From Candidatus Micrarchaeota archaeon (GTDB lineage: Archaea; Micrarchaeota; Micrarchaeia; Burarchaeales; JAKAKT01): a stretch of 64,000 nucleotides of DNA. Shown here in pieces: positions 15,745 through 64,000 of this stretch. The stretch is from assembly GCA_041305385.1 (NCBI GenBank), contig JBFYLO010000011.1, forward strand, positions 8,577 through 72,576, written 5' to 3'. The position numbers were made by a program, and so were the translations under genes. Within the stretch, counting starts at the first letter, position 1; each line of letters starts with the position of its first letter. The notes beneath the pieces are model-generated. The model was given only the letters and a program-made list of their open reading frames with translations, searched no databases and was not told where the DNA came from.

Positions 15745-17154
15745 CTAGTCGCCGAGCTTTTGGCTTATCTCCTTGTGCATCTGGACAAAAACTGCTTTGC
15801 ACCCATCGTGGGAGGCGTTGGAGTTGCAGCTCTTGAGGGCCTTTTTTACCTCGCTCTCGGAAACTACTGTTTGATACAAGTAAAGGCTTCTCGCATAAAT
15901 GAAGAACGGGCAATCACCACCACCTCGAGTCAAGTGCAGTCCAAGAGTTCCCATGTCAAGATGGGAAGAAGACAACAGTTCGCCAGGCAACCCAAAATAT
16001 GCATCGTATCTCGCATCGGCGTCTGGAGGAACTGGTTTTTCTCTCTTCGTAAACTTTACTGATTCAGAGCCGTACAAACCTCGCATAATCAATGGAAATG
16101 CATTGCCTTTAATCGTTATTATTGGTGCACTCGGAACACCGACCAAAGCTACATTCTTCCTTATCCGAACTCCTCCAAACTGTCCATTTGCGGCTTCTAA
16201 CCCTTCTACCGGATATCCGCCGAAGTCTCTTCCATGTATCATGAAAATCGTTGATTTGTCCGAACCAAAAATATAACTGAAAATGGCTAGATAAGAGACG
16301 GATTCTTCTCTCCATAAGTCTCTTATTGCTCGTACTTGTTCTTCAGTAACGCCGCTTATAAAACCGTCTCCGGATTTCATCTCTGTCTTTCCAATTAGGG
16401 GATATCTTTGCATAAAGTCTGCAAGCTTTCCTCTAAACTCAGGGTCATGAGTTAGAATTATCTTCAATTTTACGTCTCCAAAAAAAGCGCTTCCGACCTT
16501 CCCAAGAAATGAAGCATATTTTTCTCCCAACTGCAACACAGCATGTTTAACCTCCTCACCGTCCATTTTAAGCAAACTTGCATTTGCTGCAGAAGAGACC
16601 GCATATTCATAGCTTGGGACTACAAGCGTCAGCTCTTGTCCTGTTGCCCTAGCGATCTCAAAATAACGAGTTGCTTTTACCAACACGTCCCATGAAACCT
16701 TCGTTAGTCCAGAAATCTCCAGCTTCCATTGCGTTGGGAACTCAGTTATCCCCAATTCATCTATGACGCTTTTCGGGATATCGGCTCCGCCATCGAAAAT
16801 TGGTTTCGGTGGTGGGTTCTCTAAAGCCCATTTTACAATTCTCCCATTCGTCACCCCATGTGCAACTACGTCACCATGGTGTAAAAAACAGAAACCGCCA
16901 ATAATCTGTCCATCTCCACCTCGAACTCTTTTTTCAATTAGACTTAGATTTTCACTAAAAAACGCAGAAAATCTGGCCCCGCGGTATCCCTCCACGGTCT
17001 CCTCGCTAACCACTCCTTTTTTTAGAGGGCCAAAAACAGTTATTGGTGCAAATGTCTCTTTACTGGTCCAATGCTGTGTCGCCATCGGGAAAACGTGTTT
17101 CGTGAAATGTCTAGACGTCCCATCAGTTGAAAGAATCCCCTGTCGCATGCCCAT
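15745..17154 (-). CDS. Conserved hypothetical protein (469 aa); weak ASKHA-like N-terminal DxGxT motif
   Basis: Contains ILSTDGTS, GGDGQIIGG and HHGD. No confident family assignment. It is co-directional with and immediately downstream of cysS. Confidence 0.35.
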   Translation of the reverse strand: MGMRQGILSTDGTSRHFTKHVFPMATQHWTSKETFAPITVFGPLKKGVVSEETVEGYRGARFSAFFSENLSLIEKRVRGGDGQIIGGFCFLHHGDVVAHGVTNGRIVKWALENPPPKPIFDGGADIPKSVIDELGITEFPTQWKLEISGLTKVSWDVLVKATRYFEIARATGQELTLVVPSYEYAVSSAANASLLKMDGEEVKHAVLQLGEKYASFLGKVGSAFFGDVKLKIILTHDPEFRGKLADFMQRYPLIGKTEMKSGDGFISGVTEEQVRAIRDLWREESVSYLAIFSYIFGSDKSTIFMIHGRDFGGYPVEGLEAANGQFGGVRIRKNVALVGVPSAPIITIKGNAFPLIMRGLYGSESVKFTKREKPVPPDADARYDAYFGLPGELLSSSHLDMGTLGLHLTRGGGDCPFFIYARSLYLYQTVVSESEVKKALKSCNSNASHDGCKAVFVQMHKEISQKLGD

Positions 17155-29683: not shown

Positions 29684-31297
29684 ATGCCAGAACTAACCGA
29701 CTCGAAGCAAACTCAGAATCCCGACACTATTAAGCTCATTAACCTTCTTGGTAACCTAGATGGACCAACCAGAAATGAAGGATGGTTAACGGATCTCTGC
29801 ATACTCATCAAGACCGGCGAGAATTGGAAAATAGCGGCTGCGAACTTCGAGAAGCTTTCCAAGTACTTGGAAGAAACTCTTTGCCTTGCGGAAACATCCA
29901 ACTTTCGTCCCTCGATTGTAGCTGAAATAGTGGCGTTTCTAGGACTTAAAGGCTGTGCTGAGGCAACGGAATTTGCAGCCGCGGTATCGAACAGCCCTCA
30001 AAATAAGTTTGCTTCGGCGTTTGCCCAGGAACTAGTCAGGAATATCGCAGACGGCGGTTGCAACTACTTCGCTTCAAACTACGCAATCTTCAGGCAAGCC
30101 GTTTTACGCAACATCTCAGATCCCTTCATGCAGATTCTTCTGCACAGCTCATTCAATGTCGCGAAATCTCCGGCTATCCAGGATGATATCAACAAATTCA
30201 TCTATGGGGAACCAGATACACTCAAAAAATCCCACAGTATAATTTCGCACTTCATGATTAACAAGGACAACCCGCTCAAACCAAAGTGGTTCAGAAAAAT
30301 ACTGGCGTTGTATTCCGACAGGGCAACTCTGGGCCTTACTAACGAGGAAGTATGCGGTTTTGACGGAATCAAGAGCACAATCGGGCGTTCTCTTGAAGAC
30401 CCCGAGCTTATGAGAATGGCGTTCGAGAGCGGAAACGCGGAAATTGGAAAAATAGTAGTGGATCGTCTTGACAGCTTCAGGAACAATCCCGCCAAAGAAA
30501 AATCAGAGCAATATGCCCGCTTCATTCAGGAGGCTTATTCGAAAGCTCTTGAAGGCGATTCGTATCATCTTACTCTAGTGTCGTTCATGCAAGAACGACG
30601 CTTCGATGCTCCAGCCAAACTTCTGAAAGAAAATTTCTTTACAAAAATTCTCCCTAACATAAAGAATGATTCAAGTTGGGCATACCCGATTATGGCAAAA
30701 AACTGCATCGCAGAATTCGATTGGGGTTTCTATAAAAAAGTTTTCAGCAAGATGAACGAACTGTACGAGAAAGAGCAATTGGACGAGCTGTCCAAAATAG
30801 TCGGGATATTGACGGCAGAAATAGGGGCATTCCCCGCGCCGGAAGTGGGGTTTCTTAAGAAAATAGAAATAGCCGCCTATCTTCTTTCCAGCGGCGGGAT
30901 TACCAAAAAGCTCTTTGGTTCCATTGGCGCAATCCTGGGGCTTGCCAAAGGGAACATCCCGGTAAGCCGCGTCTTGAACCTAGTGGGCGAGGACGAGAAG
31001 GCACGGACTTTTGCTCTCATGTCGCTTTCCGTTGCTGTCGAATACACCGCGTTCAGTTTTAACCTCAAACCAGAGCAAGGACAAGAAGACGGCGGCTTCG
31101 TTATTGGCGAATTGGATGACGCGGTGGAAAACACATTCAAAAAAATGGGCAAAAAGGAAAAGGGGAAGCTTTTTTCAATGCTTCATGACGAGAAGATGCA
31201 GGCCGACTTGCTGGGGAACCCAAAGACGAAATACGGCGCCCTCTATCTACTGAAGCTGTTCGATTACCTTTCTGAAAAAGAAAATGCCCCTAATTAA
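29684..31297 (+). CDS. Hypothetical alpha-helical protein (537 aa), no recognisable domain
   Basis: Long clean ORF within an AT-rich island (~42% GC versus ~55% in flanks). There are no TM segments, and the sequence is predicted helical-repeat-like. Confidence 0.5.
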   Translation: MPELTDSKQTQNPDTIKLINLLGNLDGPTRNEGWLTDLCILIKTGENWKIAAANFEKLSKYLEETLCLAETSNFRPSIVAEIVAFLGLKGCAEATEFAAAVSNSPQNKFASAFAQELVRNIADGGCNYFASNYAIFRQAVLRNISDPFMQILLHSSFNVAKSPAIQDDINKFIYGEPDTLKKSHSIISHFMINKDNPLKPKWFRKILALYSDRATLGLTNEEVCGFDGIKSTIGRSLEDPELMRMAFESGNAEIGKIVVDRLDSFRNNPAKEKSEQYARFIQEAYSKALEGDSYHLTLVSFMQERRFDAPAKLLKENFFTKILPNIKNDSSWAYPIMAKNCIAEFDWGFYKKVFSKMNELYEKEQLDELSKIVGILTAEIGAFPAPEVGFLKKIEIAAYLLSSGGITKKLFGSIGAILGLAKGNIPVSRVLNLVGEDEKARTFALMSLSVAVEYTAFSFNLKPEQGQEDGGFVIGELDDAVENTFKKMGKKEKGKLFSMLHDEKMQADLLGNPKTKYGALYLLKLFDYLSEKENAPN

Positions 31298-49896: not shown

Positions 49897-51582
49897 TTAA
49901 CTTTTCTGAGCTGGGGGCTCCCAGACTTCGTAGCCTGCCTCGAGAGCCCTGGCGGGGTCCCTGACATAAACTACAGTGAAGTTGCTCGAATGCTTGTTTT
50001 CAAGCATGCACTCAAAATCCGTCGGGTTATAACACGTGGGGCAGGAGAGTTTTAGCCGTCCGTATCCCCTAGTTATGTTGACTAAGTTGAGCGCCCCGGA
50101 ATCTGAACCTAAATAAGTTATCACCACATAGTCTGTCTTTAATTCCGGGTCTCTGAACTCCCCACAGGATACGTTCGACCAGCTATGGCAAAAGTAGGTT
50201 TTCAACCCAGTGTAGTGCATAAGGGGGACCTCAACATTGTTCATCTTTACGGTCTCGGCATTACTCCTCTTCATACGGTTTATCGGTTCAATAAAACAAC
50301 TGTACAAAAGCTTGGGTGGCTCGTTCACGATTCTAAAATAATTCGGTATTGTCTGGCCGGGGTCATATCCTATGTGAAAGAGGTATAAGGTTTTTTCGTT
50401 GAAGAGCCCATAGCATGACCACAGCAAGGGAGTCTTGATAAGCACATTCTGTTCAAAAATAATCGCAGGCGGAAAAAAGAAGACGCATGATACCAGGTAT
50501 CCCACCATTACTTGGGAAAGCAGAGGTAACCTCCTGTGCAGGAACTCGATTAGTCCCGCACTAATGAAATACGCCAGGGGCATGAGCGGGGCAATGAACC
50601 TCAACGCCCAGTAATCAACAAACGACAAAGCCACGATGCTAAAAACAAAAAGCAAAACAATTAAACTGAAAAATGGGTCTGCTTTTAAGGGTTGCTTCTT
50701 CAGGAGAGCAACGAAAAACGCAATCAGCAACAGCGGGTAAAAAAGGAACTGCCCCAGGTTTCCGACATAGCCCAAAACGTTCAAAACAAATGCATCTTGG
50801 CCTGCAGACGATTTCCCGGCTTTTTCCCACATCTTAACATAGGCTAGCCACGGGGCAGTAAGAAGCAAGAACGAAATTCCCAGCACAGCAATCCAGGCAA
50901 TCGTCTGCCTCCTGCGCTCAGGGGCCTCGAAAACCAGATAATGGATGCAAAATGCCCCGAAAACTGCAACTGAAAGCACGAAGTTTGAGGAGTGGAAGAG
51001 AGCGGCGTTTGATAGAACGAACAGGGCGCCCATCGCAAGAGTTCTTTTTTCCCTCAGTTTCAAATAACTGTAAAAGGCGATTCCAAACAAAAGGCAAGTG
51101 AGCGAATAATACCTCCCTTGTCTAAACAGCGCAAGCATCGGGACTGATGTGGCCATCAGGAAAAGAAAAAAAAGGCGCGGCCAAAGAGACAGCCTGTCCT
51201 TCAATAAACAATACCACAAAACAACTGATAGAACGCCGAACAATGCAAACGGCGCCCTCGCAGAGAAGTTGCTCTCCCCCAGAACCTTGAAGGAGAATGC
51301 AGTTATGTAATACGGGAACCAGGTGTGTTGCGTGTGGATGAAATCTTCATTATAATCGGCGTCATTCATCCATTTAGCCCCTATAGTCACCAAGTTTTTT
51401 CCGTCATAAACCAAGGGCAGGCCAGTCCTAAGGATGTTCTTTGCAATCATTGCGCTCTCGGCTTCATCCCACCAAAGGTATTCCGCGCCCAAATTCCAGA
51501 ATAGGAGAATAAAGAATATGAAAAACATTGCAGCTGCTGCGAGATTTTCTAGGTTTAAGGCGACTTTTGGCAAAGGTCGCAT
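49897..51582 (-). CDS. GT-C fold membrane glycosyltransferase (ArnT/PMT-like, family 39/83-like)
   Basis: About 12 TM helices and a WWDEAE motif in the first extracytoplasmic loop (the DE catalytic motif of ArnT/PMT enzymes). ATG at 51582 is chosen to avoid overlapping lemA. It lies in an AT-rich region. Confidence 0.5.
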   Translation of the reverse strand: MRPLPKVALNLENLAAAAMFFIFFILLFWNLGAEYLWWDEAESAMIAKNILRTGLPLVYDGKNLVTIGAKWMNDADYNEDFIHTQHTWFPYYITAFSFKVLGESNFSARAPFALFGVLSVVLWYCLLKDRLSLWPRLFFLFLMATSVPMLALFRQGRYYSLTCLLFGIAFYSYLKLREKRTLAMGALFVLSNAALFHSSNFVLSVAVFGAFCIHYLVFEAPERRRQTIAWIAVLGISFLLLTAPWLAYVKMWEKAGKSSAGQDAFVLNVLGYVGNLGQFLFYPLLLIAFFVALLKKQPLKADPFFSLIVLLFVFSIVALSFVDYWALRFIAPLMPLAYFISAGLIEFLHRRLPLLSQVMVGYLVSCVFFFPPAIIFEQNVLIKTPLLWSCYGLFNEKTLYLFHIGYDPGQTIPNYFRIVNEPPKLLYSCFIEPINRMKRSNAETVKMNNVEVPLMHYTGLKTYFCHSWSNVSCGEFRDPELKTDYVVITYLGSDSGALNLVNITRGYGRLKLSCPTCYNPTDFECMLENKHSSNFTVVYVRDPARALEAGYEVWEPPAQKS

Positions 51583-51592
51583 CTCACCACTT

Positions 51593-52171
51593 TCAGAACT
51601 CAACCTTCACTGGTCCTCGCGCAGCCTCTTCAGTTTCGAAGTATTCCCTTATCTTGAAACCCAGAATCGAGGCAATCAGGTTGGACGGGAACATCTGGAC
51701 CTTGTTGTTGTAGCTCATCACGTTGTCGTTGTAGAACTGGCGCGCGTAGGCAATCTTGCTCTCGGTCCCGGCGAGCTCCTCCTGGAGCATCTTGAAGTTC
51801 TCGTTGGCCTTCAGCTGCGGGTAGTTCTCAGCCACTGCGAAGAGGCTCTTCAGAGTCTGGGTGAGCATATTGCTGGCCTGGGCCTTGTCCTTCACGCTGG
51901 TGCCATCCATGGCAGTGGCCATCTGGGCCCTGGCCTTGGTCACATTCTCGAAGACTTCCCTTTCGTGCTTGGCATAGCCCTTGACGGTGTTCACCAGGTT
52001 TGGTATGAGGTCGTACCTCCTCCTGAGCTGGACGTCAATCTGCGCCCATGCGTTGTTTATCTGGTTGCTCAGTGCAATCAGGCCGTTGTAGGTCAAAACA
52101 ACAAAGAGCAAAATTCCTAAAACTACGACCAGAAGCGCAATTCCGATGATCTCAAGCATCATCCTCACCAC
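51593..52171 (-). CDS. lemA: LemA family protein
   Basis: N-terminal TM, then [43 protein letters not shown] matching the LemA consensus. Confidence 0.8.
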
Positions 52172-55011: not shown

Positions 55012-56187
55012 ATGCTCGAGTACGTGCTCGCATTCCTTGGGCTCTACTCCGTGGTGTTCTACTTCCTGCTCTACCTGACGGAATCTGAGAATGTCAGGGA
55101 GGACCCGAAGCCCAAGGGAACGCCGACGGTTTCGGTAATCATTCCCGCCTACAATGAGGAGAAATCCATCGGGAAAACCATTGAGTCGATACTCGCCCTC
55201 GATTACCCCAAGAAAAAACTCGAGGTAATCGTGGTTAACGACGGCTCAAAAGACAGGACGAGCGAAATAGCTAAAAGATACCCCGTAAAGCTAATTGAAA
55301 AGAAAAACTCGGGCAAGGCGAACTCAATCAACGTTGCCCTCGGGCAGGCGAGGGGCGAGCTGGTTGCAATCATGGATGCGGACTCCTACGTCTCAAAAGG
55401 TGCGCTGCTGAAAATGGTCGGGTATTTCGAGGACCCGGAAGTTGCGGCAGTCACTGCGGCCATGAAGGTCTGGGAGCCGAAAACACTGGTCCAGAAGATG
55501 CAAAAGGGCGAATACCTGATAAACGCATTTTTCAAAAAACTCCAAAGCTTCATTGATGGCATTTCCGTGACCCCGGGTCCTTTTTCAATTTATAAGCGGG
55601 CGGTGCTTCTGGAGCTGGGAGGATTCGATGAGCACACGATAACTGAAGACCAGGAAATCGCCCTCAGAATCCAGTCAAGGAACCTGAGAATCGAGAACTC
55701 CATCAACGCCGAGGTTTTCACCGATGTTCCCTCGAATTTGAGGTCCCTTTTCAAGCAGAGGAGGAGGTGGTACTTAGGCTATCTCCAGAACATCTGGAAG
55801 CACAAATCCCTATTCAGCCCGAAATATGGCGACTTCGGAATGTTTGTCATGCCCCTGGCCGCGGTCCTTCTAATCCTCTCTGTGCTCTCGCTGTTCATTG
55901 CCTACGTCCCCAAGTCCCTTGACCTCAGCCTGAGGCTCGACCCCTCAGCCCTCACTTTCTTTTACCTGGAACTCACCCCGACCCGGGTCGTGTTCCTGTT
56001 CATTTTCGCCATAAACGCCCTGGCTTTTTACTTCACATTGAGGAACACGCGCGAATACGGGTTCCTCGGAAACTTTTTATCGCTGATTGCTGTATCCTCA
56101 TTGATGCTCCTGCTCTGGATAGTGGTCCTCGCCGAGCAAATCGCAAACCTCTTGAGGGGCTTCAGCCCCACCTGGAGAGGCGAATGA
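55012..56187 (+). CDS. Processive family-2 glycosyltransferase (cellulose/chitin/PNAG-synthase-like, QxxRW)
   Basis: VSVIIPAYNEE, DGSKDRT, DAD, the processive GT2 motif QRRRW (KQRRRWYLG), an N-terminal TM and four C-terminal TM helices. Confidence 0.75.
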   Translation: MLEYVLAFLGLYSVVFYFLLYLTESENVREDPKPKGTPTVSVIIPAYNEEKSIGKTIESILALDYPKKKLEVIVVNDGSKDRTSEIAKRYPVKLIEKKNSGKANSINVALGQARGELVAIMDADSYVSKGALLKMVGYFEDPEVAAVTAAMKVWEPKTLVQKMQKGEYLINAFFKKLQSFIDGISVTPGPFSIYKRAVLLELGGFDEHTITEDQEIALRIQSRNLRIENSINAEVFTDVPSNLRSLFKQRRRWYLGYLQNIWKHKSLFSPKYGDFGMFVMPLAAVLLILSVLSLFIAYVPKSLDLSLRLDPSALTFFYLELTPTRVVFLFIFAINALAFYFTLRNTREYGFLGNFLSLIAVSSLMLLLWIVVLAEQIANLLRGFSPTWRGE

Positions 56188-56249
56188 AAGGACAAAGTTG
56201 CCAACAACTTTGGCCGCATTGGAATTAGCAAATTCCAATACAATATGAA

Positions 56250-56354
56250 GCAGCTGCATGGCGCGGTGCGAAGCTCCCGGGAGCTTCGCAGTCGGCATTC
56301 GAATGCCGACCGAGCCATCCGAATGGCTCGCCGCCAATTGCCGATGCAGCTGCC
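56250..56354. repeat. GC-rich triple-hairpin intergenic element, copy C (TIR GCAGCTGCAT...ATGCAGCTGC)
   Basis: Hairpins GCGAAGCTCCCGGGAGCTTCGC, AGTCGGCATTCGAATGCCGAC and GAGCCATCCGAATGGCTC, then a GCCGCCAATTGCCG tail. It lies in-frame inside the ORF-track extension of the 56245 ORF. Confidence 0.55.
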
Positions 56355-56355
56355 C

Positions 56356-57024
56356 ATGGTGGATGAGATGCAGAGAAAAATCAGCCCGCTCCACATCGTC
56401 GCCCTTTTCATAACGTCCCTAATATTCATAATCGGGATTCTAATCGGCTGGCAGATGGGATACACTGCCGAGAGCAAGATGAAGGGAGAGCTTGAGGGGC
56501 TCAGGAGCGAGCAGTATGCCCTGGATGTCCTTTCCCTCATGAGGGAGACCGGCGAGGCCGGGTGCCCAGCGCTTCAGAACGAGTTCGCCGAACTTTCAAC
56601 AATGACCATCGAATATGGTAACAGCCTCGATTACATGGAGAAGAAGCTGGGAAAGCTGGACCCCGAAGTCATGAGCCTCAAATCCGATTATTCGTTGATG
56701 CAGGCCAGGAACTACCTTCTGTTGAAGGACATGGACAAGAACTGCGGCTCAAGCCACATCATAATTCTGTACTTCTACACTAATGAGGACTACTCCGCAA
56801 GCACGGACCAGGGAATTGCCCTCCAGGATGCACTCGCCCAGTTGCCCGCGATTCGCGAGAAAACCGCCATCTACCACTTCGATGTAAATGTGAATAACCC
56901 GGTGATGGATGCATTCAAGGAGCAATATGGGGTTACTAAAGTTCCAACCATGATAATCAAAGGGAAGAAATACGAGGGCTATGTGAGCGCTGAAAAATGC
57001 AGGGAGATTTTTGAGAATGCGTGA
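56356..57024 (+). CDS. Membrane-anchored thioredoxin-fold protein, hypothetical
   Basis: The start is taken at ATG 56356, immediately after the repeat element. The ORF-track start at 56245 would translate the repeat as RSSRELRSRHSNADRAIRMARRQLPMQ. An N-terminal TM is followed by a glutaredoxin-like C-terminus VPTMIIKGKKYEGY. Confidence 0.4.
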   Translation: MVDEMQRKISPLHIVALFITSLIFIIGILIGWQMGYTAESKMKGELEGLRSEQYALDVLSLMRETGEAGCPALQNEFAELSTMTIEYGNSLDYMEKKLGKLDPEVMSLKSDYSLMQARNYLLLKDMDKNCGSSHIIILYFYTNEDYSASTDQGIALQDALAQLPAIREKTAIYHFDVNVNNPVMDAFKEQYGVTKVPTMIIKGKKYEGYVSAEKCREIFENA

Positions 57025-57033
57025 GGCGGGAGA

Positions 57034-57537
57034 ATGATGCTGTTCACCTTTTGGAATGATGACATCTCGAGAAAGCTCGAGAAATCGGACAAATCCGCAG
57101 CCCTATTCTGGAGGCTTTCGAACCTTTTCGGAAAGCTTTGCATGTTCCCGTTGGCAGCAGGAGTCGTCTGTCTTCTCATTGCAGCACTTGGCCCACCCAT
57201 ACTCAGTTCAATGTTCGGCGAATTAACCGCCGATCTGAACATGCCGGTTGCGAAGAACATCAGCTCAATCTCTGAAAACACTCGCGATATTTTCTCGACC
57301 CTCGGCCTCCTTGCGTTCATCATAGCCGGATTGCTCATCATCCCCTATTCAGTCGCAACTGGAATGCTTGCTCTTAGGATGAAGGATAACGGCTGGGGCA
57401 TAGCCCTGCTCCTCGGCTTCTTCCTGTGGCCCCTGGCCATTCTGGGCCCCATATACAAGCAGCGGAAGCGAAAGGAGTTCTCAAACAAAACTGAGGCGGT
57501 TGAATGTTCTGGGAAGACGACATCTCGAAAAAGCTGA
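57034..57537 (+). CDS. Small polytopic membrane protein, paralog 1 (FWxDDISxKL family), hypothetical
   Basis: Begins MMLFTFWNDDISRKLEK...FWRLSNLF, with 3-4 TM helices. It overlaps paralog 2 by 34 nt in another frame. Confidence 0.4.
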   Translation: MMLFTFWNDDISRKLEKSDKSAALFWRLSNLFGKLCMFPLAAGVVCLLIAALGPPILSSMFGELTADLNMPVAKNISSISENTRDIFSTLGLLAFIIAGLLIIPYSVATGMLALRMKDNGWGIALLLGFFLWPLAILGPIYKQRKRKEFSNKTEAVECSGKTTSRKS

Positions 57538-58034
57538 CCGAGGCTGGAAGGAAAAACACGGGCACTCTCTGGAAGGTCTCGAACCTGTTTGCGGTTCCAG
57601 CGGTCCTCGCTATGCTTGCGCTAATCGGCGGAATCGTCCTTCTAATAGTTGCTGCCTCGGCCACCTTTCTCTTCGGTCCATCGCCAACCACCGACACCAT
57701 AAAAAACGTTGTCCCAGTGATAGCTCTGCTGCTCTTTATCGCTGCAGGAGTCCTTTACCTCTTTTTCCTCGTCTATGCTGTCATTGTAGCTGCCATAGCA
57801 TTTGATTTCGGAGATGTTTGGTGGGGGGCGGCGAACCTGCTAATTGGCATTACGGCTCCGTTCTACAAATATTTCAAGGCCAAGGAGATTCGGGAGAAGG
57901 GGCTCCAGCTGAAAGAACTTAACAATTCGCCGGCTGAAGTGGAAAAAAACAAACAACCTCCTGAAGCCGAGCCCGTTGTTCAGCCGCCCGCCCCCGAGCC
58001 TAAAAAGCCCACTAGAAAAAAAGTTTCCTCTTAA
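57504..58034 (+). CDS. Small polytopic membrane protein, paralog 2 (FWxDDISxKL family) with Pro-rich basic tail, hypothetical
   Basis: Begins MFWEDDISKKLTEA...LWKVSNLF and ends PPEAEPVVQPPAPEPKKPTRKK. Confidence 0.4.
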   Translation: MFWEDDISKKLTEAGRKNTGTLWKVSNLFAVPAVLAMLALIGGIVLLIVAASATFLFGPSPTTDTIKNVVPVIALLLFIAAGVLYLFFLVYAVIVAAIAFDFGDVWWGAANLLIGITAPFYKYFKAKEIREKGLQLKELNNSPAEVEKNKQPPEAEPVVQPPAPEPKKPTRKKVSS

Positions 58035-58041
58035 TATCCAA

Positions 58042-58323
58042 TCACTCGAGCCATCCATAGCCAGCGTTTCTCCTCATTATCGTAGTTACCCGGACCTCGT
58101 TTCCAACAATAGCATAAACGACCCTGAAATCCCCGGCTCTCAGGCGGTAAAAAGCCGGATTAAACGAGCCTTCGAGTTTCTTTATGTCCGCGCCGCTTCT
58201 TTTTCTGAAAGGGTTTTCCCCAAGAGCCGAAAGCGCCTTCTTTATCCTCCGCTGGTCCTTCTGCTCGAGCTCGTAAAACGATTTGCGGGCAGCGTCAGAA
58301 ACCAAAACTGAGAAACCGTTCAT
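58042..58323 (-). CDS. RelE/ParE-family type II toxin
   Basis: 93 aa, KKALSALGENPF...RLRAGDFRVVYAIVGNEVRVTTIMRR, with typical RelE/StbE-fold conservation. It overlaps the upstream small gene by 4 bp. Confidence 0.65.
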   Translation of the reverse strand: MNGFSVLVSDAARKSFYELEQKDQRRIKKALSALGENPFRKRSGADIKKLEGSFNPAFYRLRAGDFRVVYAIVGNEVRVTTIMRRNAGYGWLE

Positions 58324-58514
58324 AGCTCATCAGCCGGAGTGAACCCCTCGTTCCTCAGAATCCACTTCTGCCTCTCGAGGAATCCGTGCAAGGTGGCGAC
58401 TTCCATGAGCTCATTCAGTATGTCGTTGTATGTCTGCTTCTTGCTGCCGAACTCCTTGAGCTTGTCTCGAGTCCTAACGTCTATCGATATCGTCGTGTTC
58501 ATATAATCAAACAT
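58320..58514 (-). CDS. Putative antitoxin partner of the RelE-like toxin
   Basis: 64-aa acidic protein immediately upstream with a 4-bp overlap. Confidence 0.5.
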   Translation of the reverse strand: MFDYMNTTISIDVRTRDKLKEFGSKKQTYNDILNELMEVATLHGFLERQKWILRNEGFTPADEL

Positions 58515-58550: not shown

Positions 58551-58766
58551 CTACTTGAACAGATCCTCGATGCCATCGTCGTCCTCAATTTCTTCCAGAA
58601 CCGAATTCTCTGCAGGCGGGGCTTCAATTTTCCTCCCGCCCGCGCAGTTCTTGCAGACATTCCCCCTGTAATCAAAGCAGGCGGGGCATACCTTCGCCCC
58701 GCACAGGGGACACGTGTGCTTCACGGTCAATTTCCCGCAGATGTCGCATAATCCGGCGAAGTCCAA
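58551..58766 (-). CDS. Cys-rich zinc-ribbon protein (8 Cys), hypothetical
   Basis: CDICGKLTVKHTCPLCGAKVCPACFDYRGNVCKNC plus an acidic tail. Confidence 0.45.
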   Translation of the reverse strand: MDFAGLCDICGKLTVKHTCPLCGAKVCPACFDYRGNVCKNCAGGRKIEAPPAENSVLEEIEDDDGIEDLFK

Positions 58767-58812
58767 GGTATCACCATTTAAATAACGCCGTTTATATATT
58801 ACTGGTGATGCT

Positions 58813-61269
58813 TTGAACTGGCACTACTCGCTTTTCGTAATACTCTTCTTGGCCTCGTCTCCTTTTGCTACGCTGATAGCCGAACAATCTACAGACAAAG
58901 AGATTTCTGTGCCGACTTCGATTTCTGAAAACAAAATTGGGATGGCAAACCCGGCAGCAGTTTACTGCATTGAGCTTGGCTATGGTTACAAAATCACCAA
59001 AGGGCCATTGGGCGAATATGGGACTTGCATTTTCCCGGACAAGACCGAGTGCGAAGAGTGGCAGTTTCTTGCTGGTAAATGCGGGCAGAGCCACTCCTAT
59101 TGCGCGAAGCAAGGCTATGGGATAAAAACGATGAGCGATGGGAAGGACCCGTTCTCCCCGGAATATGCGGTTTGCACTTCCGTTGATAAAAAAATTGAAA
59201 TTGATTCTGTTTCAAAACTATTCGACCTGCAAACAAAATCACTGAAAGGGTCGATTACTATTTCGGTCAAAGAAGCCGTAGCTGCCCCCACATCGTCTAC
59301 ACAAGCCCAGGAAACTCCATCAGTTCTTCCCCCATCTTTTGACTGGAGAGATTACAATGGTCAGAATTGGATGACTCCAGTTAGAGACCAAGGCAGTTGT
59401 GGTTCATGCTGGGTTTTTTCGACAGTTGGAGTGGTTGAGGCTCTTTTTAACTTACTTGACAATACTCCAGGACGAGATTTTGACCTCTCAGAACAGACCA
59501 TAGTTTCTTGCAACGGAGTGGGTAATGGTTGTCTTGGAGGAGACCCAAGATTTGCGCTCTCATACATTAAAAATACCGGAATCCCGGATGAGATGTGTTT
59601 TCCCTATGTTGCTCAGTACGCGTCATGCTCAAATAGATGTCCAGACTGGATGGAAAGATCAGTAACCATAACGAGTCATGGGGAAATGTGGAACGTCTCC
59701 GGTATGGAACTTGTTCCTCTGGATATCGAAACAGTAAAAAGATATCTAATCGAGAAGGGACCACTTGAAACTGTTATGAGCACCCGTGGCAGTTTCATAA
59801 ATTTTAACGGAACTTTTGTTTATGTTTGTAACGGTGATCGAAATCTCACGCATTCTGTAATCATTACGGGTTATAATGATAACTTTACCCTCCCTCAAAA
59901 CCCATACACGAACAGCGGAGGTTACTGGATTATTAAAAACAGTTGGGGTTTAGTGGGTGATGGGTATATCTACATAAAATATGGGGAATGCGGCGTGCCT
60001 ACGATGATAACCTACGCTAAAAAATGCCTGGAGGCAGGAGCGCAATGCAATAATAATCTTCAGTGCTGCTCTCGCGATTGTAATGGCGGGACGTGTTCTC
60101 AGCGATGTGGTGATGATGATTGTGATGGAAATGAAACCTGTGAAACTTGTAAGCAAGATTGTGGTCGTTGCTCTTGTGGAGATGGGGAGTGTACTCATAC
60201 TGGCATTACGAGCCAATTTGAAAGATGCGATAATTGTCCAGAAGACTGTGGCCAGTGCACAGGGTGCGGAGACGGTTTTTGCGTCCCCCCTGAAAACTGC
60301 TTAACGTGTCCAGGAGATTGCATTAGTTGTTGTGGTGACGGACAGTGTTTAGGAAACGAAACAACAGTTACATGTCCAAATGATTGCGGAAGCCTTTGTG
60401 GCGATGGAGCATGTAATGGGTACGAAGACACCCGTGAATGCCCAGAAGACTGCGGTTCATTGTGCGGCGATTGGACATGCAATGGAAATGAGACCTGTTT
60501 ATCCTGCCCGACAGACTGTTTCTACTGTTTCGCCGACCCAGCGGTCCAAAACATCAGTTGGACGCCGGATTCACCAACTAACTGTAGCGGATACGGCAAC
60601 GTTGAGGTGAAGAACATAGGGACTTTCCCGAGCCCACGGGGGGTTTACTCAATTTATGCCGATAACATACTCATCGGTCAAGGGTTTACTAGTGAACTCC
60701 CGCCAGGGCGGTCCAACTACATCGGCTTCCTTTACAATCCCATATCAACGTCCTCACCTTACCGGATGATTGAAGCATCGATAAATGTTGTCAACGATTC
60801 TAACCCTGAAAACAACCGGCTCGTCAAGCAGATAACTCTCAACTGCTACTGCGGTAACGGGAGATGCGATTTGAATGAGAATACAGCAACCTGTCCTTCT
60901 GACTGCCCACTCCAATTCTGCGGAGATGGAACCTGCAATTCTGGAGAGACGTGCTCTTCATGTCCGAGTGACTGCGGAACGTGTATATGTACCCCAGCCT
61001 ATTTCTGCAAAGACATCAACACGCTGGCGTACAGAAATTTCAAGTGCTACGTTAGCTATTCGAGCTGCAATGGGGGAATCTGCTGCAATGGCAAATGCCA
61101 AAAGGCACTCCCCGGAGCTACGTGCATCGATGTCAATACGGTGGTGGCAGCACAAAACATTGCGCAGGTGCAGGGCCCTGAGCTTCCGACTGTTCTCGCA
61201 GTTCTGAGCATGGTTGTCTTGGTGGGGGTAGTGCTCTATGCGTTCATAAAAATAGAAACGAGGTTCTGA
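58813..61269 (+). CDS. Membrane-anchored secreted papain-like (C1) cysteine protease with N-terminal DUF333 domain and a C-terminal array of Cys-rich repeats
   Basis: TTG start with signal peptide. DUF333-like NPAAVYCIELGYGYKI..GTCIFPDKTECEEWQF. C1 peptidase motifs are QGSCGSCWVFSTVG (catalytic Cys) plus downstream His/Asn regions. There are at least eight repeats of C[GS]DGxCxxxExxxxCPxDCGxxC. The C-terminus has a TM anchor LPTVLAVLSMVVLVGVVLYAFI. The island is AT-rich. Confidence 0.75.
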   Translation: MNWHYSLFVILFLASSPFATLIAEQSTDKEISVPTSISENKIGMANPAAVYCIELGYGYKITKGPLGEYGTCIFPDKTECEEWQFLAGKCGQSHSYCAKQGYGIKTMSDGKDPFSPEYAVCTSVDKKIEIDSVSKLFDLQTKSLKGSITISVKEAVAAPTSSTQAQETPSVLPPSFDWRDYNGQNWMTPVRDQGSCGSCWVFSTVGVVEALFNLLDNTPGRDFDLSEQTIVSCNGVGNGCLGGDPRFALSYIKNTGIPDEMCFPYVAQYASCSNRCPDWMERSVTITSHGEMWNVSGMELVPLDIETVKRYLIEKGPLETVMSTRGSFINFNGTFVYVCNGDRNLTHSVIITGYNDNFTLPQNPYTNSGGYWIIKNSWGLVGDGYIYIKYGECGVPTMITYAKKCLEAGAQCNNNLQCCSRDCNGGTCSQRCGDDDCDGNETCETCKQDCGRCSCGDGECTHTGITSQFERCDNCPEDCGQCTGCGDGFCVPPENCLTCPGDCISCCGDGQCLGNETTVTCPNDCGSLCGDGACNGYEDTRECPEDCGSLCGDWTCNGNETCLSCPTDCFYCFADPAVQNISWTPDSPTNCSGYGNVEVKNIGTFPSPRGVYSIYADNILIGQGFTSELPPGRSNYIGFLYNPISTSSPYRMIEASINVVNDSNPENNRLVKQITLNCYCGNGRCDLNENTATCPSDCPLQFCGDGTCNSGETCSSCPSDCGTCICTPAYFCKDINTLAYRNFKCYVSYSSCNGGICCNGKCQKALPGATCIDVNTVVAAQNIAQVQGPELPTVLAVLSMVVLVGVVLYAFIKIETRF

Positions 61270-61315: not shown

Positions 61316-61642
61316 TCATTCCACTTCGATTTCCACAACCTTCACTTCATTGGCATTGGTCTCAATATCAGGCGAGCCGCACTTCGGGCAGCGAATGGGC
61401 GAGAACTGCGTCGAGGTCTCCTTCTTGCACTTGTGGCACTTGAGATAAGGTTTCATCATCTTGACTTCGAGTTTTGCATTTCCCGCAGGAGTGCTCTCGG
61501 AAAGCATGAAGAACAATTCCCTGAACTCGGCCACATCGGTTATGTTCGAGCCCACCTCAATGCGGATTCTCTTTACTTTCTTCCCTTTTGCCCCCTCGAG
61601 GACAGCGGAAAGCGCGGCTTTCACATAAGGCATCTCTTGCAT
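61316..61642 (-). CDS. hypA: Hydrogenase nickel-insertion / maturation protein HypA
   Basis: 108 aa with an MQEMPYVKAALSAVLE N-terminus (HypA MHE.s.a.sI...) and a C-terminal zinc site CHKC...CPKCGS. Confidence 0.6.
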   Translation of the reverse strand: MQEMPYVKAALSAVLEGAKGKKVKRIRIEVGSNITDVAEFRELFFMLSESTPAGNAKLEVKMMKPYLKCHKCKKETSTQFSPIRCPKCGSPDIETNANEVKVVEIEVE

Positions 61643-61768: not shown

Positions 61769-62434
61769 TCACTTGTTTCTTTTCACCCAGGGCGGGGCAT
61801 CCTTGAATTCCAAATCTTCGGCGGGCTTCCCGTCCCCCTCGATTATACCGCCCCCAGTTTTTTCTTCACTCTGGGCTTCCCCGCCTCCCCCCTCCAGCTC
61901 CTTCCTGGCCTTTTCCACTAGGGTTTCCTCTTTCTCTTGCTTGGGCTCAGGGGGCTTCTCCTCTGGCTTGGGCTGGGCGGGCTTGAGCCTGCATTCCGGG
62001 CATCTGGCGAACAGCTTCGGGTCCATCCTCTTCGTTTCAATCATGTAATTCTTCTGGACAAGGGCCATGGTGTCCTTGCCGCATACCTCGCACTTGGCCA
62101 TCTCGTAAATTTTCTTGGCATAGAGCTCCTTGTCCTCGCGCGCCTCCTCGTAGCGGTCGGTGAATATGACTGCGTTCACGGGGCAGACGTCGGCGCACCT
62201 TCCGCAGGATATGCAATGGGGGAGCCAGTAGACCAGGGATTTCCTGTCGAACTTTATGCACTTGGCAGGGCAGGCTGCTGCGCAAGCCCCGCAGGCTATG
62301 CATGCGTCTGAAATCTCAATCATGCCCCTGAACCTCGCCGGGGGCAGCACCTTCCTGGCCGGGTAGGGGACAGTGCTTGGCATGCGGAAGAGGTTCTTCA
62401 GCACGTCGTCAATCATCCTTGGAATCAGTTTCAT
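61769..62434 (-). CDS. NuoI/EchF/HycF-like 2x[4Fe-4S] ferredoxin subunit of a membrane-bound hydrogenase, with extra Cys motif and K/E/P-rich tail
   Basis: CIACGACAAACP and CISCGRCADVCP, an additional CEVCGK...CPEC, and a C-terminal PKPEEKPPEPKQEKEE low-complexity region. Confidence 0.75.
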   Translation of the reverse strand: MKLIPRMIDDVLKNLFRMPSTVPYPARKVLPPARFRGMIEISDACIACGACAAACPAKCIKFDRKSLVYWLPHCISCGRCADVCPVNAVIFTDRYEEAREDKELYAKKIYEMAKCEVCGKDTMALVQKNYMIETKRMDPKLFARCPECRLKPAQPKPEEKPPEPKQEKEETLVEKARKELEGGGGEAQSEEKTGGGIIEGDGKPAEDLEFKDAPPWVKRNK

Positions 62435-63414
62435 CCAACAACACCGTTATAGACCAATACAATTAACATCTGGATTATCGCGAACAGGAGCAGGCCCTTC
62501 AGGTAGAAGCCGGAGGCCTGGTGGACCTTGAACCTCCCGGAGACTGCTTCCACAATCGCCATGAGAATCGCTGCGAAGAGCGCCACAGCCATCTGGAACA
62601 CGAGCATCATGAGGACCCCGAGGGCTGAAACTGAGAGGAAGGGGACCGCTTTCTCGATGCCCTGGAACGCCGGCATGAGGAAGGCTCCGGGCTCGGGAAT
62701 GGGCATGAACAGGGTTGCGAAAAGCATGGGGAAGACATAGAATTTGAGGGCTTCAGTAATCTTGTAGGCTGCGAGGAGCCTTCCCGAATATTCGGTGTAA
62801 ATGCCCTCCACTATCTCGGTCTCAGCCTCGGTCACGTGGAACGGCGCCCTTCCCAGCTCCCCGAGCATGCAGGCGAAATAGACCGCTGCACCAAGGAGGA
62901 GCAGTGCGTTCGAAGCCGCGTCCATGGCCCCAAGGGAGAAGCTCTTCGCCAGGAAGGCCACTGAGAGCAGGACCAATGTCATGGGGAGCTCAAACGAGAT
63001 GACCATCGTTATCTCCCTGGAGGCGCCGATTGCCGAGAAGGGGGAGCCCGAGGCAGAGGCCCCAAGTATTATCCCGATGCTCGAGAGTATAATCACATAA
63101 AGGAGCACGAACAGGTCGCCGCCGAATCCCCAGAGCGAGACCTTTGCTATGGGCACGAGCAGCACCGCAGTTGAAATCGCAGCCACTGAGACCAGCGGGG
63201 CGAGTATGAACAGGGGCCTGACCGCACCCTTCGGAATCAGCGTCTCCTTCGAGAGCAGTTTCAATATGTCATAGAGGGGCTGGAGTATGGGCGGGCCTAT
63301 CCTGTTCTGCAGCCTCGCGAAAAGCTTCCTCTCGACTCCTTGAAGTATTATCCCGAATAGGAAAGCGAACAGCAGGAGCACAGCCGAGCCCAGCAAATAT
63401 TGGACAGCATCCAT
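62431..63414 (-). CDS. NuoH/EchB/HycD-like integral membrane subunit of energy-converting hydrogenase
   Basis: RKLFARLQNRIGPPILQPLYDILKL and eight TM helices. It has 4-bp overlaps with both neighbours. Confidence 0.8.
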   Translation of the reverse strand: MDAVQYLLGSAVLLLFAFLFGIILQGVERKLFARLQNRIGPPILQPLYDILKLLSKETLIPKGAVRPLFILAPLVSVAAISTAVLLVPIAKVSLWGFGGDLFVLLYVIILSSIGIILGASASGSPFSAIGASREITMVISFELPMTLVLLSVAFLAKSFSLGAMDAASNALLLLGAAVYFACMLGELGRAPFHVTEAETEIVEGIYTEYSGRLLAAYKITEALKFYVFPMLFATLFMPIPEPGAFLMPAFQGIEKAVPFLSVSALGVLMMLVFQMAVALFAAILMAIVEAVSGRFKVHQASGFYLKGLLLFAIIQMLIVLVYNGVVG

Positions 63415-63415
63415 C

Positions 63416-64000
63416 CTATCTCCTCATCTTCCTCAGTTCCCTGAATGAAACATACCTGCCCGTCCCCCTTTCATCGATGAAAGAAACCCGGTCCATGCAC
63501 CCGATGCATGGGTCGATGCTTGCTATGATTATCGGGATGTCCGCGATATGCTCGTCCTTGAACATTGCGGGAATCGAGAGCACGTTCGCAAGGGTCGGCG
63601 CCCTTACCTTGTAGCGGGCTGGCCTCGGCCCGCCCTCGGTCCTCATGTAGTGGATGTCCTCGCCCCTTGGTGCCTCGGTCCTGCTCACCGCCTCGCCCTT
63701 CGGCATCTTCCAGTTGTCGTTCCTGAAATCCCCGGCAGGCATGTTCCTGAGCGCCTGCTCGATTATCCTGATGGACTCCTTAAGCTCGAGAATCCTGACC
63801 ACTGTCCTCCCGAAAACATCCCCGCTGTCCCAGGTTATCACGTCGAAATCGAGCTCACCATAGGCGAAATACGGGTCGTCCCTCCTGACATCGATATCGG
63901 CCCCCGAAGCCCTGGCAGTCGGCCCGACAGCCCCGAGCTTGTAAGCCTCGTCCTTGGTGAGCACCCCGACCCCTGCAACCCTTCTCTCGATTATCGGGTC
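63416..64000 (-). CDS. [NiFe] hydrogenase large subunit, group 4 (EchE/MbhL/HycE-like), C-terminal part. The 5' end lies beyond the window.
   Basis: The frame is open to the window edge (...DPIIERRVAGVGVLTKDEAYKLGAVGPTARASG). It is NuoD-like but retains the C-terminal Ni-binding DPCIGCMDR (DPCxxC), and hypA lies downstream. Confidence 0.75.
   Translation of the reverse strand, partial: DPIIERRVAGVGVLTKDEAYKLGAVGPTARASGADIDVRRDDPYFAYGELDFDVITWDSGDVFGRTVVRILELKESIRIIEQALRNMPAGDFRNDNWKMPKGEAVSRTEAPRGEDIHYMRTEGGPRPARYKVRAPTLANVLSIPAMFKDEHIADIPIIIASIDPCIGCMDRVSFIDERGTGRYVSFRELRKMRR

What the first reader, a model, noticed from the sequence alone, without database searches (positions are those of the whole stretch)
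58813..61269. Giant surface-anchored DUF333 + papain-like protease with at least 8 Cys-rich CGDGxC...CPxDCG repeats
This is an unusual domain combination. It has a signal peptide, a DUF333 domain (NPAAVYC...CEEWQF), a complete C1A papain catalytic domain (QGSCGSCW), a long array of about 22-aa repeats with 5-6 Cys each (CGDGxCxxxExxxxCPxDCGxxC), and a C-terminal TM anchor. The Cys-rich array resembles neither dockerin nor PKD nor typical archaeal S-layer anchoring domains; it could be a disulfide-knotted stalk or a metal-binding module. The gene lies in an AT-rich island at about 40-47% GC beside a RelE toxin-antitoxin pair, which suggests acquisition. A cell-surface papain-like protease fits an extracellular proteolytic or symbiont lifestyle.
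Basis: partly seen in the sequence, partly recalled or inferred. Interest (0 to 1): 0.65.

Follow-up and report, generated by a model that had tools for sequence, protein, structure and literature searches.

The report
Membrane-anchored archaeal papain-like protease on cysteine-rich stalk
This gene encodes a cell-surface papain-type protease of an uncultured archaeon; the enzyme is ordinary, but it is held on a stalk of a widespread, uncatalogued cysteine-rich mini-repeat and carries an N-terminal DUF333 module that turns out to be a regular genomic partner of such proteases.

Summary
ORF 58813-61269 (+) encodes 818 aa: signal peptide, DUF333, a C1A papain domain with all four catalytic residues, eight CGDGxC...CPxDC units in two blocks (6 + 2) split by a CARDB-like domain, and a C-terminal TM anchor.

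The interpretation needs three corrections.
- 818 aa is not giant.
- DUF333 + C1 is a common architecture across many phyla (883 hits).
- The core repeat has 4 invariant Cys, not 5-6; five of the eight units add one extra Cys pair.

The repeat matches no Pfam, NCBIfam or PDB entry and no paper found. Yet a profile finds 5,420 protein clusters, attached to many extracellular domains. Optional cysteines appear in pairs (odds ratio 43), which favours disulfide knots.

New here: in other uncultured archaea the C1 protease and a "DUF333-repeat stalk-TM" protein are adjacent genes. Of 86 DUF333 ORFs, 41 sit directly downstream of a C1 gene and 29 are fused to C1. DUF333 therefore looks like a dedicated C1 partner, most likely a pro- or inhibitor-like domain; this role is inferred, not shown.

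Verdict: a new member of a known kind (modular surface protease), of moderate interest.

The parts
58778..58808 (+). Upstream signals: TATA-like boxes TTTAAATA and TTTATATA, and a GGTGAT Shine-Dalgarno-like box 5 nt before the TTG start
   Evidence: Read directly from the sequence; not tested for function
58813..61269 (+). Whole ORF, 818 aa plus stop; an identical protein exists in an NCBI assembly on a 103-kb contig
58813..58884 (+). Probable Sec signal peptide (aa 1-24, hydrophobic core SLFVILFLASSPF, ...LIA|EQ)
   Evidence: Hydropathy peak at aa 4-25; homologues also carry N-terminal hydrophobic leaders. The cleavage site is inferred
58939..59250 (+). DUF333 module with its conserved extension (aa 43-146). 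Pfam DUF333 covers aa 43-88. The second half (aa 89-146) is conserved in the family, with invariant Cys52/80/90/97/121 and near-invariant Cys72
   Evidence: AF2 block-mean pLDDT 92-98 over aa 51-140, helix plus beta-hairpin twice
59251..59325 (+). Poorly conserved linker predicted disordered (aa 147-171); candidate processing site
   Evidence: pLDDT <50 for aa 147-168; variable in the alignment. Cleavage is inferred
59326..60021 (+). Peptidase_C1 (papain, C1A) catalytic domain, aa 172-403. Catalytic Gln193 (59389-59391), Cys199 (59407-59409), His347 (59851-59853), Asn376 (59938-59940)
60022..60105 (+). Short Cys-rich segment (aa 404-431) with a C-x6-C-x5-CC-x3-C-x4-C framework
   Evidence: Read from the sequence; no family hit
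60106..60528 (+). Repeat block 1: six CGDGxC...CPxDC units (aa 432-572)
   Evidence: own HMM; AF2 model of units 3-6 with pLDDT 85
60529..60849 (+). Probable CARDB-type Ig-like beta-sandwich (aa 573-679)
   Evidence: Pfam CARDB E 7e-4, 20.2 bits, below the 22.7 cut-off; BLASTP E 0.001 to the CARDB region of homologue P0004
60850..60987 (+). Repeat block 2: two CGDGxC...CPxDC units (aa 680-725)
60988..61125 (+). Second non-repeat Cys-rich segment (aa 726-771, 8 Cys)
   Evidence: no family hit
61189..61266 (+). C-terminal transmembrane helix (aa 793-812) and short basic cytoplasmic tail KIETRF
   Evidence: Kyte-Doolittle maximum of 2.9 at aa 794; no archaeosortase-type sorting-signal model matched

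Best explanation
The gene encodes a type-I membrane-anchored extracellular cysteine endopeptidase of the papain family (C1A) from an uncultured archaeon, possibly a DPANN/Micrarchaeota MAG. After Sec export, the C-terminal helix holds the protein in the membrane. A stalk projects the N-terminal catalytic domain away from the cell. The stalk comprises eight 19-22-aa disulfide-stapled CGDGxC...CPxDC mini-knots, one CARDB-like Ig domain and two further Cys-rich segments. The N-terminal DUF333 double module is a dedicated partner domain of C1A peptidases. It most likely acts like a propeptide (folding aid and/or inhibitor) and is released or displaced at the disordered linker (aa 147-171) to give the active enzyme. 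The enzyme then cleaves extracellular proteins at the cell surface, either for peptide scavenging or for processing of its own or a host's envelope. Shown: the domain content, the intact catalytic residues, the topology signals, the width of the repeat family, the paired optional Cys, and the DUF333-C1 gene linkage. Inferred: disulfide bonding, the stalk role, the pro/inhibitor role of DUF333, and the substrates. The confidence of 0.6 is for the whole statement: about 0.85 for 'surface-anchored active C1A protease on a Cys-rich stalk', and about 0.45 for the pro/inhibitor role of DUF333.
For: Architecture and catalytic residues. Topology. Repeat family: the 19-aa core has invariant C1, C6, E10, C15, D18 and C19 over 1,550 units from 181 proteins. 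Optional Cys at positions 12 and 22 co-occur in 261 of 289 units (odds ratio 43), and positions 5 and 13 co-occur with odds ratio 49; this is the behaviour of disulfide partners. A profile finds 5,420 cluster representatives at E<=1e-3 and 313 at E<=1e-30. These proteins pair the repeat with trypsin, matrixin, lectin, CBM, propeller and other extracellular domains, as expected of a spacer module. The AF2 model of four units has pLDDT 85 and almost no secondary structure. DUF333-C1 link: 38 of 81 C1 loci are fused and 3 archaeal genomes have a C1 gene followed by a DUF333-repeat-TM gene. Among 86 DUF333 ORFs picked by DUF333 similarity alone, 41 lie directly downstream of a separate C1 gene and 29 are fused. 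None of the 41 upstream C1 ORFs has a TM tail, and the gaps between the two ORFs are operon-like. In the window protein the anchor is already present in cis, so DUF333 must do something other than anchoring. The arrangement resembles SpeB propeptide/Spi and staphopain/staphostatin, where an inhibitor gene lies directly downstream of the protease gene; that comparison rests on my own knowledge, not on a test here.
Against: There is no direct evidence that DUF333 contacts or inhibits the active site. The model pTM is only 0.61, and I could not read inter-domain contacts or PAE. The linker is unconserved, unlike the cleft-filling segment of I29 propeptides. The suspected homology between the module's last helix and the N-terminal segments of C1-only relatives was not significant, and those segments are not I29 by Pfam. 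The four core Cys are invariant, so covariation cannot separate two disulfides from a Cys4 metal site. The host encodes a hydrogenase (neighbouring HypA, and adjacent hydrogenase-like subunit ORFs) and may live in reducing conditions, where extracellular disulfides are less obvious. The Micrarchaeota assignment rests on one >=90% cluster-mate. The covariation counts are not phylogenetically independent.
Confidence: 0.6

Rival explanations
1. DUF333 is a non-inhibitory docking or substrate-binding module. In split systems the membrane-anchored DUF333-stalk protein would capture the secreted C1 protease and display it on the surface, in the manner of cohesin and dockerin. In fused proteins it would be retained as a substrate- or envelope-binding domain.
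For: In all 41 split loci the C1 ORF ends a median of 19 residues after the catalytic domain and has no TM tail, while most DUF333 partners have one. The DUF333-C1 linker is disordered and unconserved, so it looks more like a tether than an inhibitory strand.
Against: The window protein (with stalk and TM) and 29 or more other fused proteins keep DUF333 although the protease is covalently attached to them, so pure anchoring would be redundant. Its constant N-terminal position directly before the catalytic domain is where propeptides sit.
Confidence: 0.3
2. The CGDGxC...CPxDC units are metal-binding modules (Cys4 Zn/Fe sites, or Ca2+ sites formed by the invariant D3/E10/D18) rather than purely disulfide-stapled spacers. 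The array would then serve metal sequestration or redox chemistry at the surface.
For: There are four invariant Cys plus three invariant acidic or amide residues in 19 aa. The host may be an anaerobe, given the adjacent HypA and hydrogenase-like genes. No structure exists to exclude this.
Against: Optional extra Cys always come in defined pairs (12+22, 5+13), which is typical of disulfides. The C-x4-C / C-x3-C spacing is unlike common CxxC zinc knuckles. The repeat is attached to many unrelated extracellular enzymes and binding domains and occurs in aerobic Myxococcus lipoproteins, which fits a generic structural spacer. Ca2+ binding by the acidic residues is compatible with the main explanation and is not excluded.
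Confidence: 0.15
3. The protein is a catalytically dead or non-proteolytic adhesin that merely re-uses a papain fold.
For: None beyond the general occurrence of pseudo-proteases; no activity data exist.
Confidence: 0.03

Closest known systems
Papain-family (MEROPS C1A) peptidases such as cathepsin L/K/S and cathepsin C (DPP1)
   Different: No I29 propeptide; a DUF333 double module precedes the catalytic domain instead. No cathepsin C exclusion domain was detected. The protein is C-terminally membrane-anchored through a Cys-rich stalk.
Cwp84 of Clostridioides difficile (PDB 4ci7), with xylellain (3ois) and Legionella Lpg2622 (6a0n): prokaryotic secreted or surface C1A proteases
   Different: Cwp84 is held by CWB2 cell-wall-binding repeats and has a lectin-like domain. 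Here the anchor is a TM helix plus CGDGxC/CARDB stalk, and the host is an archaeon.
DUF333 (PF03891 / COG3042 'putative hemolysin'; e.g. E. coli lipoprotein YoaF)
   Same: aa 43-88 match the Pfam model end to end.
   Different: Here the domain has a conserved 58-aa extension and is fused to, or encoded next to, C1 peptidases. I found no paper assigning a function to it.
Myxococcus cysteine-rich repeat (TIGR02232 / Pfam DUF4215, 'CGNGxxExGEECDDGN...')
   Same: It shares the opening 'CG[DN]G....E' half-motif, occurs in the same kinds of secreted proteins and sometimes in the same proteins.
   Different: The Cys spacing and length differ. Neither model matched the window array at E<=10. hhalign aligns only 13 columns at 35% probability.
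Protease/inhibitor gene pairs: SpeB propeptide and Spi, staphopain and staphostatin
   Same: A module that is N-terminal to the protease in some proteins is a separate gene directly downstream of the protease gene in others. The comparison itself rests on my own knowledge.
   Different: There is no sequence relationship. The DUF333 partner is extracellular and membrane-tethered, not cytoplasmic, and inhibition is untested.

Membership tests
Peptidase C1A (papain family, PF00112) | Full-length match to the family profile above the curated cut-off | tested here: met
   143.3 bits against a cut-off of 20.7; profile positions 1-218 of 220
Peptidase C1A (papain family, PF00112) | Catalytic Cys and His, with the oxyanion Gln and the orienting Asn | tested here: met
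   Gln193, Cys199, His347 and Asn376 are present and invariant in 103 sequences
Peptidase C1A (papain family, PF00112) | Papain fold | tested here: met
Peptidase C1A (papain family, PF00112) | I29-type propeptide, typical of cathepsin-L-like zymogens | tested here: not met
   No Inhibitor_I29 hit in the protein. This feature is typical but does not define C1A membership
Peptidase C1A (papain family, PF00112) | E-64-sensitive peptidase activity | not testable with these tools
   Needs an enzyme assay
DUF333 (PF03891) | Match to the profile above the curated cut-off, with the conserved Cys pattern | tested here: met
   64.2 bits against a cut-off of 25; profile positions 1-46 of 47. Cys52/80 are invariant and Cys72 is near-invariant
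CARDB (PF07705) | Match to the profile above the curated cut-off | tested here: inconclusive
   20.2 bits against a cut-off of 22.7, E 7e-4, profile positions 24-99 of 101. Weak BLASTP match to the CARDB region of P0004, E 0.001
Myxococcus cysteine-rich repeat (TIGR02232 / PF13948 DUF4215) | Match to the family models; ~30-40-aa unit CGNGxxExGEECDDGN...C...C | tested here: not met
   No Pfam or NCBIfam hit at E<=10 on the array. hhalign probability 35% over 13 columns only
Archaeosortase/exosortase C-terminal sorting signals (PGF-CTERM, PEF-CTERM and similar) | Match of the C-terminal tail to an NCBIfam sorting-signal model | tested here: not met
   The 50-aa tail gave no NCBIfam hit at E<=10. 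The tail does contain 'PELP' before the TM, which I did not pursue
Known solved Cys-rich mini-domains (EGF, LNR, TNFR-CRD, somatomedin B and others) | Detectable sequence or fold similarity of the repeat to a PDB entry | tested here: not met

The most novel reading that the evidence does not exclude
DUF333 (COG3042, 'putative hemolysin') is a previously unrecognised family of prokaryotic papain-protease pro- or inhibitor domains. It would be used either in cis, as the N-terminal module of thousands of C1A peptidases, or in trans, as a membrane-tethered protein on a CGDGxC stalk encoded directly downstream of the protease. In trans it could shield the producer's own surface or hold the enzyme latent until contact. 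The CGDGxC...CPxDC unit would be a new, very widespread disulfide (and possibly Ca2+) mini-domain fold.
Probability: 0.35. Interest if true: 0.62.

Novelty: new member of a known kind. Interest (0 to 1): 0.42.

Why it matters
The enzyme itself is an ordinary modular surface protease. Two by-products are useful.

First, a 19-22-aa Cys-rich repeat occurs in at least 5,420 protein clusters at the 50% identity level, yet it has no Pfam or NCBIfam model, no solved structure and no literature. It is a ready candidate for curation and structure determination, and a model for it would annotate the stalks of many large surface proteins of uncultured bacteria and archaea.

Second, the tight fusion and adjacency of DUF333 with C1A peptidases gives a testable function to a long-standing domain of unknown function. 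It points to a possible new way in which prokaryotes control or display papain-like proteases. That is relevant to how DPANN and CPR organisms with small genomes interact with hosts and scavenge peptides.

Tried and rejected
- **Pseudo-protease:** rejected. All catalytic residues are invariant.
- **Repeat belongs to a known family:** rejected. There were no Pfam or NCBIfam hits at E<=10, and 81 repeat-rich proteins showed only stray Somatomedin_B (3) and DUF4215 (2) hits. hhalign against DUF4215-like units gave a partial match at 35% probability.
- **Last helix of the DUF333 module is homologous to the N-terminal segment of C1-only relatives:** not significant. Those segments are not I29 by Pfam.
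- **Recognised archaeosortase sorting signal at the C-terminus:** no model hit.
- **Recent DNA-level expansion of the array:** no period-66 tandem repeat.
- **Exact source organism:** The look-up of encoding contigs found no record for two window proteins, and the GTDB scan did not contain the genome. The only taxonomic hint is a PurD cluster-mate labelled Micrarchaeota, plus the archaeal markers Nre and DHH-CID.
- **Word-indexed searches with the repeat:** these returned few hits, and the second returned only short fragments. The exhaustive HMM search was needed.
- **Literature:** searches on DUF333, 'CGDG' and DPANN Cys-rich surface proteins gave nothing relevant.
Full report
**1. Observation**

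The window holds an 818-aa ORF at exactly 58813-61269 on the + strand. It starts at TTG. A GGTGAT box lies 5 nt upstream and AT-rich TATA-like boxes lie at 58778-58798. An identical 818-aa protein is present in an NCBI assembly on a 103-kb contig.

Pfam places DUF333 at aa 43-88 (E 1.4e-17) and Peptidase_C1 at aa 172-401 (E 1.6e-41). A motif scan finds eight CG[DN]GxC...C[PK]xDC units at aa 432, 455, 485, 507, 529, 551, 680 and 703. Hydropathy shows only two hydrophobic segments: an N-terminal signal-like one and a C-terminal TM at aa ~793-812, followed by KIETRF. The protein has 73 Cys.

'Giant' is an overstatement, and the Cys count per unit needs revision (section 3).

**2. The protease**

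The catalytic Gln193, Cys199, His347 and Asn376 are present, and they are invariant in an alignment with 102 homologues. The best solved relatives by sequence are cathepsin C, rhodesain and cathepsins L/K/S (E 1e-28 to 1e-22).

**3. The repeat**

The unit and its variation:
- Across the window protein and the first 14 relatives, the core is 19 aa: C-G-D-G-x-C-N-G-x-E-T-x-x-x-C-P-x-D-C.
- Over 1,550 units from 181 proteins, C1, C6, C15 and C19 are invariant. E10 (98%), D18 (99%), G2 (98%) and D/N3 (99%) are nearly so. The commonest period is 22 aa.
- Each unit therefore has four core Cys. Five of the eight window units add a Cys in the 'ETC' position and another after the core ('GxC').
- Family-wide, Cys at position 12 is accompanied by Cys at position 22 in 261 of 289 units (odds ratio 43). 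A second optional pair links positions 5 and 13 (odds ratio 49).
- Optional cysteines that appear only in defined pairs are what disulfide partners do. The counts are not phylogenetically independent, so the p-values are inflated, but the pattern is clear.

No curated or solved relative was found:
- No Pfam-A family matches the array even at E<=10, and no NCBIfam model does.
- The repeat profile has no relative among PDB sequences.
- An AF2 model of units 3-6, built on a 43-sequence in-register alignment, has pLDDT 85.4. It has almost no regular secondary structure, only a short helical turn at PxDC in two of the four units.
- The nearest look-alike, the Myxococcus Cys-rich repeat (TIGR02232/DUF4215), shares only the opening CGDG...E half-motif: hhalign aligns 13 columns at 35% probability.

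The repeat is nevertheless widespread:
- An exhaustive HMM search of 1.84 billion cluster representatives finds 5,420 proteins at E<=1e-3, 2,103 at E<=1e-10 and 313 at E<=1e-30. Some hold up to 29 matched two-unit stretches.
- 139 of the top 150 hits contain three or more strict motifs.
- In 81 of them no Pfam family covers the repeat. The partner domains are extracellular: trypsin, matrixin, FG-GAP, Kelch/RCC1 propellers, C-type lectin, CBM96, NosD and FGE-sulfatase.
- Small Myxococcus lipoproteins made almost only of these units also exist.
- There is no DNA-level periodicity in the window array, so it is old and diverged.
- I found no paper describing the motif.

I conclude that it is a real, abundant and uncurated extracellular spacer module, probably disulfide-stapled. 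Its invariant acidic residues could bind Ca2+, but that is inference.

**4. Other parts of the stalk**

The segment between the two repeat blocks (aa 573-679) is probably a CARDB-type Ig-like domain. Pfam gives E 7e-4, just below the cut-off, and BLASTP gives E 0.001 to the CARDB region of a homologue. Two further Cys-rich segments (aa 404-431 and 726-771) match nothing. The C-terminal tail matches no archaeosortase-type signal model.

**5. DUF333 and its link to C1 peptidases**

DUF333 + Peptidase_C1 is a common architecture:
- The search returned 883 hits. Their C-terminal modules vary: TSP_3, dockerin, beta-helix, CARDB, PKD and P-proprotein.
- In species-representative genomes it occurs in Chloroflexota, Acidobacteriota, Ignavibacteria, Zixibacteria, CPR bacteria, DPANN archaea, Methanosarcinales and Archaeoglobus.
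- The conserved N-terminal module is larger than the Pfam domain. It spans aa 43-146, with invariant Cys52/80/90/97/121 and near-invariant Cys72. It is predicted with block-mean pLDDT 92-98 over aa 51-140 as two helix-plus-hairpin halves, followed by a disordered, unconserved linker at aa 147-168.
- No solved relative exists by sequence.
- Only the window protein and P0104, among the 120 closest homologues, combine DUF333-C1 with CGDGxC repeats.

The informative result is a Rosetta-stone pattern. In a Woesearchaeota MAG (L047), an Altiarchaeales MAG (L053) and an uncultured archaeon (L062), the C1 protease is a separate ORF. The gene directly downstream encodes signal peptide, DUF333 module, CGDGxC repeats and a C-terminal TM.

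Counts from HMM mapping:

| Set | Fused DUF333-C1 | C1 gene directly upstream | Other | C1 only / none |
|---|---|---|---|---|
| 80 genome loci + window, selected on C1 | 38 | 3 | - | 40 C1 only |
| 86 DUF333 ORFs in 80 metagenome loci, selected on DUF333 alone | 29 | 41 | 5 small DUF333 ORFs just upstream of a fused gene | 11 with no C1 within 500 bp |

Six of those 11 have at most 216 bp of upstream flank, and 10 have at most 1,313 bp, so most cannot be judged. In the 41 split loci the C1 ORF ends a median of 19 residues after the catalytic domain, and none has a TM tail. The gaps between the two ORFs are operon-like.

So within this clade DUF333 is a dedicated partner of C1A peptidases. The window protein unites partner, enzyme, stalk and anchor in one chain.

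**6. Mechanism**

Shown: an exported, C-terminally anchored protein with an intact papain domain at the membrane-distal end of a Cys-rich stalk, and DUF333-C1 gene linkage.

Inferred: the repeats form disulfide knots that act as a semi-rigid, protease-resistant spacer. DUF333 acts like a propeptide or inhibitor, or as a folding aid, and is removed at the disordered linker.

The argument for a pro/inhibitor role has three parts:
- Position: the module sits directly N-terminal to the catalytic domain.
- Retention: it is kept even when the anchor is present in cis, so it is not needed for anchoring.
- Analogy: in SpeB/Spi and staphopain/staphostatin an inhibitor gene lies directly downstream of the protease gene. 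This comparison rests on my own knowledge.

Against it: I saw no inter-domain contact evidence (pTM 0.61). The linker is unconserved. The attempt to link the module's last helix to the N-terminal segments of C1-only relatives failed.

The main rival is a docking or substrate-binding role. It is favoured by the absence of any anchor on the split proteases. A metal-site reading of the four core Cys cannot be excluded, but the paired optional Cys and the presence of the repeat in aerobic myxobacteria argue against it.

**7. Context**

The host is an archaeon: archaeal Nre and a DHH-CID nuclease are in the window. One window protein, PurD, clusters at >=90% identity with a protein labelled Candidatus Micrarchaeota. 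That is weak evidence for a DPANN origin.

The gene's GC3 (0.46) is well below the window norm of about 0.65-0.75. A ParE/RelE-DUF7557 pair lies just upstream on the opposite strand. Horizontal acquisition is plausible but not shown, and three other ORFs in the window have similarly low GC3.

**8. Verdict**

The protein is a new member of a known kind, a modular surface-anchored C1A protease. Two aspects deserve follow-up: an abundant uncurated Cys-rich repeat, and a strong genomic link that offers a testable function for DUF333. Interest is moderate (0.42).

Noticed in passing
window 60025-60096 (aa 405-428) and 60988-61125 (aa 726-771): There are two non-repeat Cys-rich segments. The first has the C-x6-C-x5-CC-x3-C-x4-C framework typical of inhibitor-cystine-knot peptides. 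Neither matches any Pfam or NCBIfam model.
   Followed up: partly
L047 4368-5294, L053 989-1870, L062 3278-4282: Stand-alone DUF333-stalk-TM proteins pair each CGDGxC unit with a second acidic Cys motif, 'YCDxxxDGxCDPDC...DPDC'. This may be another uncurated repeat. The upstream C1 ORFs also have long Cys-rich N-terminal regions, with a median of about 19 Cys before the catalytic domain.
   Followed up: partly
window aa 440, 515, 559 (nt 60130-60138, 60355-60363, 60487-60495): Three of the eight repeats carry an N-E-T glycosylation sequon at the same unit position. A PMT_2-like glycosyltransferase (49897-51603, -) and a GT2 (55012-56187, +) lie nearby, which suggests a glycosylated stalk.
   Followed up: no
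window 58042-58323 (-) and 58320-58514 (-): A ParE/RelE-family toxin (PF05016, E 3e-7) overlaps by 4 nt with an upstream DUF7557 ORF that is presumably the antitoxin. This type II toxin-antitoxin pair sits immediately beside the protease gene.
   Followed up: partly
window 58551-58766 (-): A 71-aa ORF has four CxxC pairs (zinc-ribbon-like). Its hits to Prok-RING_2 and zf-HIT are weak and below the cut-offs.
   Followed up: no
window 56245-57024 (+), 57034-57537 (+), 57504-58034 (+): The first is a membrane protein with sub-threshold thioredoxin-fold hits but no CxxC motif. It is followed by two overlapping paralogous small membrane proteins (N-termini FWNDDISRKL / FWEDDISKKL) with no family match.
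   Followed up: no
window 15745-17154 (-) and 29684-31297 (+): Two further large ORFs have low GC3 (0.41 and 0.53) and no Pfam hit at E<=1e-5. They may be other accessory or surface genes with the same atypical composition as the protease gene.
   Followed up: no
window 61316-61642 (-), 61769-63964 (-): HypA (Pfam E 5.6e-17) is followed by ORFs that look, by eye, like a 4Fe-4S ferredoxin-type subunit, a NuoH-like membrane subunit and a NuoD-like large subunit of a membrane-bound (Ech/Mbh-type) hydrogenase. This would be unexpected metabolic capacity if the MAG really is a Micrarchaeote. Only HypA was checked against Pfam.
   Followed up: partly
genome loci L036, L038, L043, L046, L048, L052, L055, L064, L073: C1-only relatives share a conserved ~45-aa segment ('I..AI...GA.W.AGETS.S.LS.EER..LG') between the signal peptide and the catalytic domain. 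It is positionally a propeptide, but Pfam does not recognise it as I29.
   Followed up: partly
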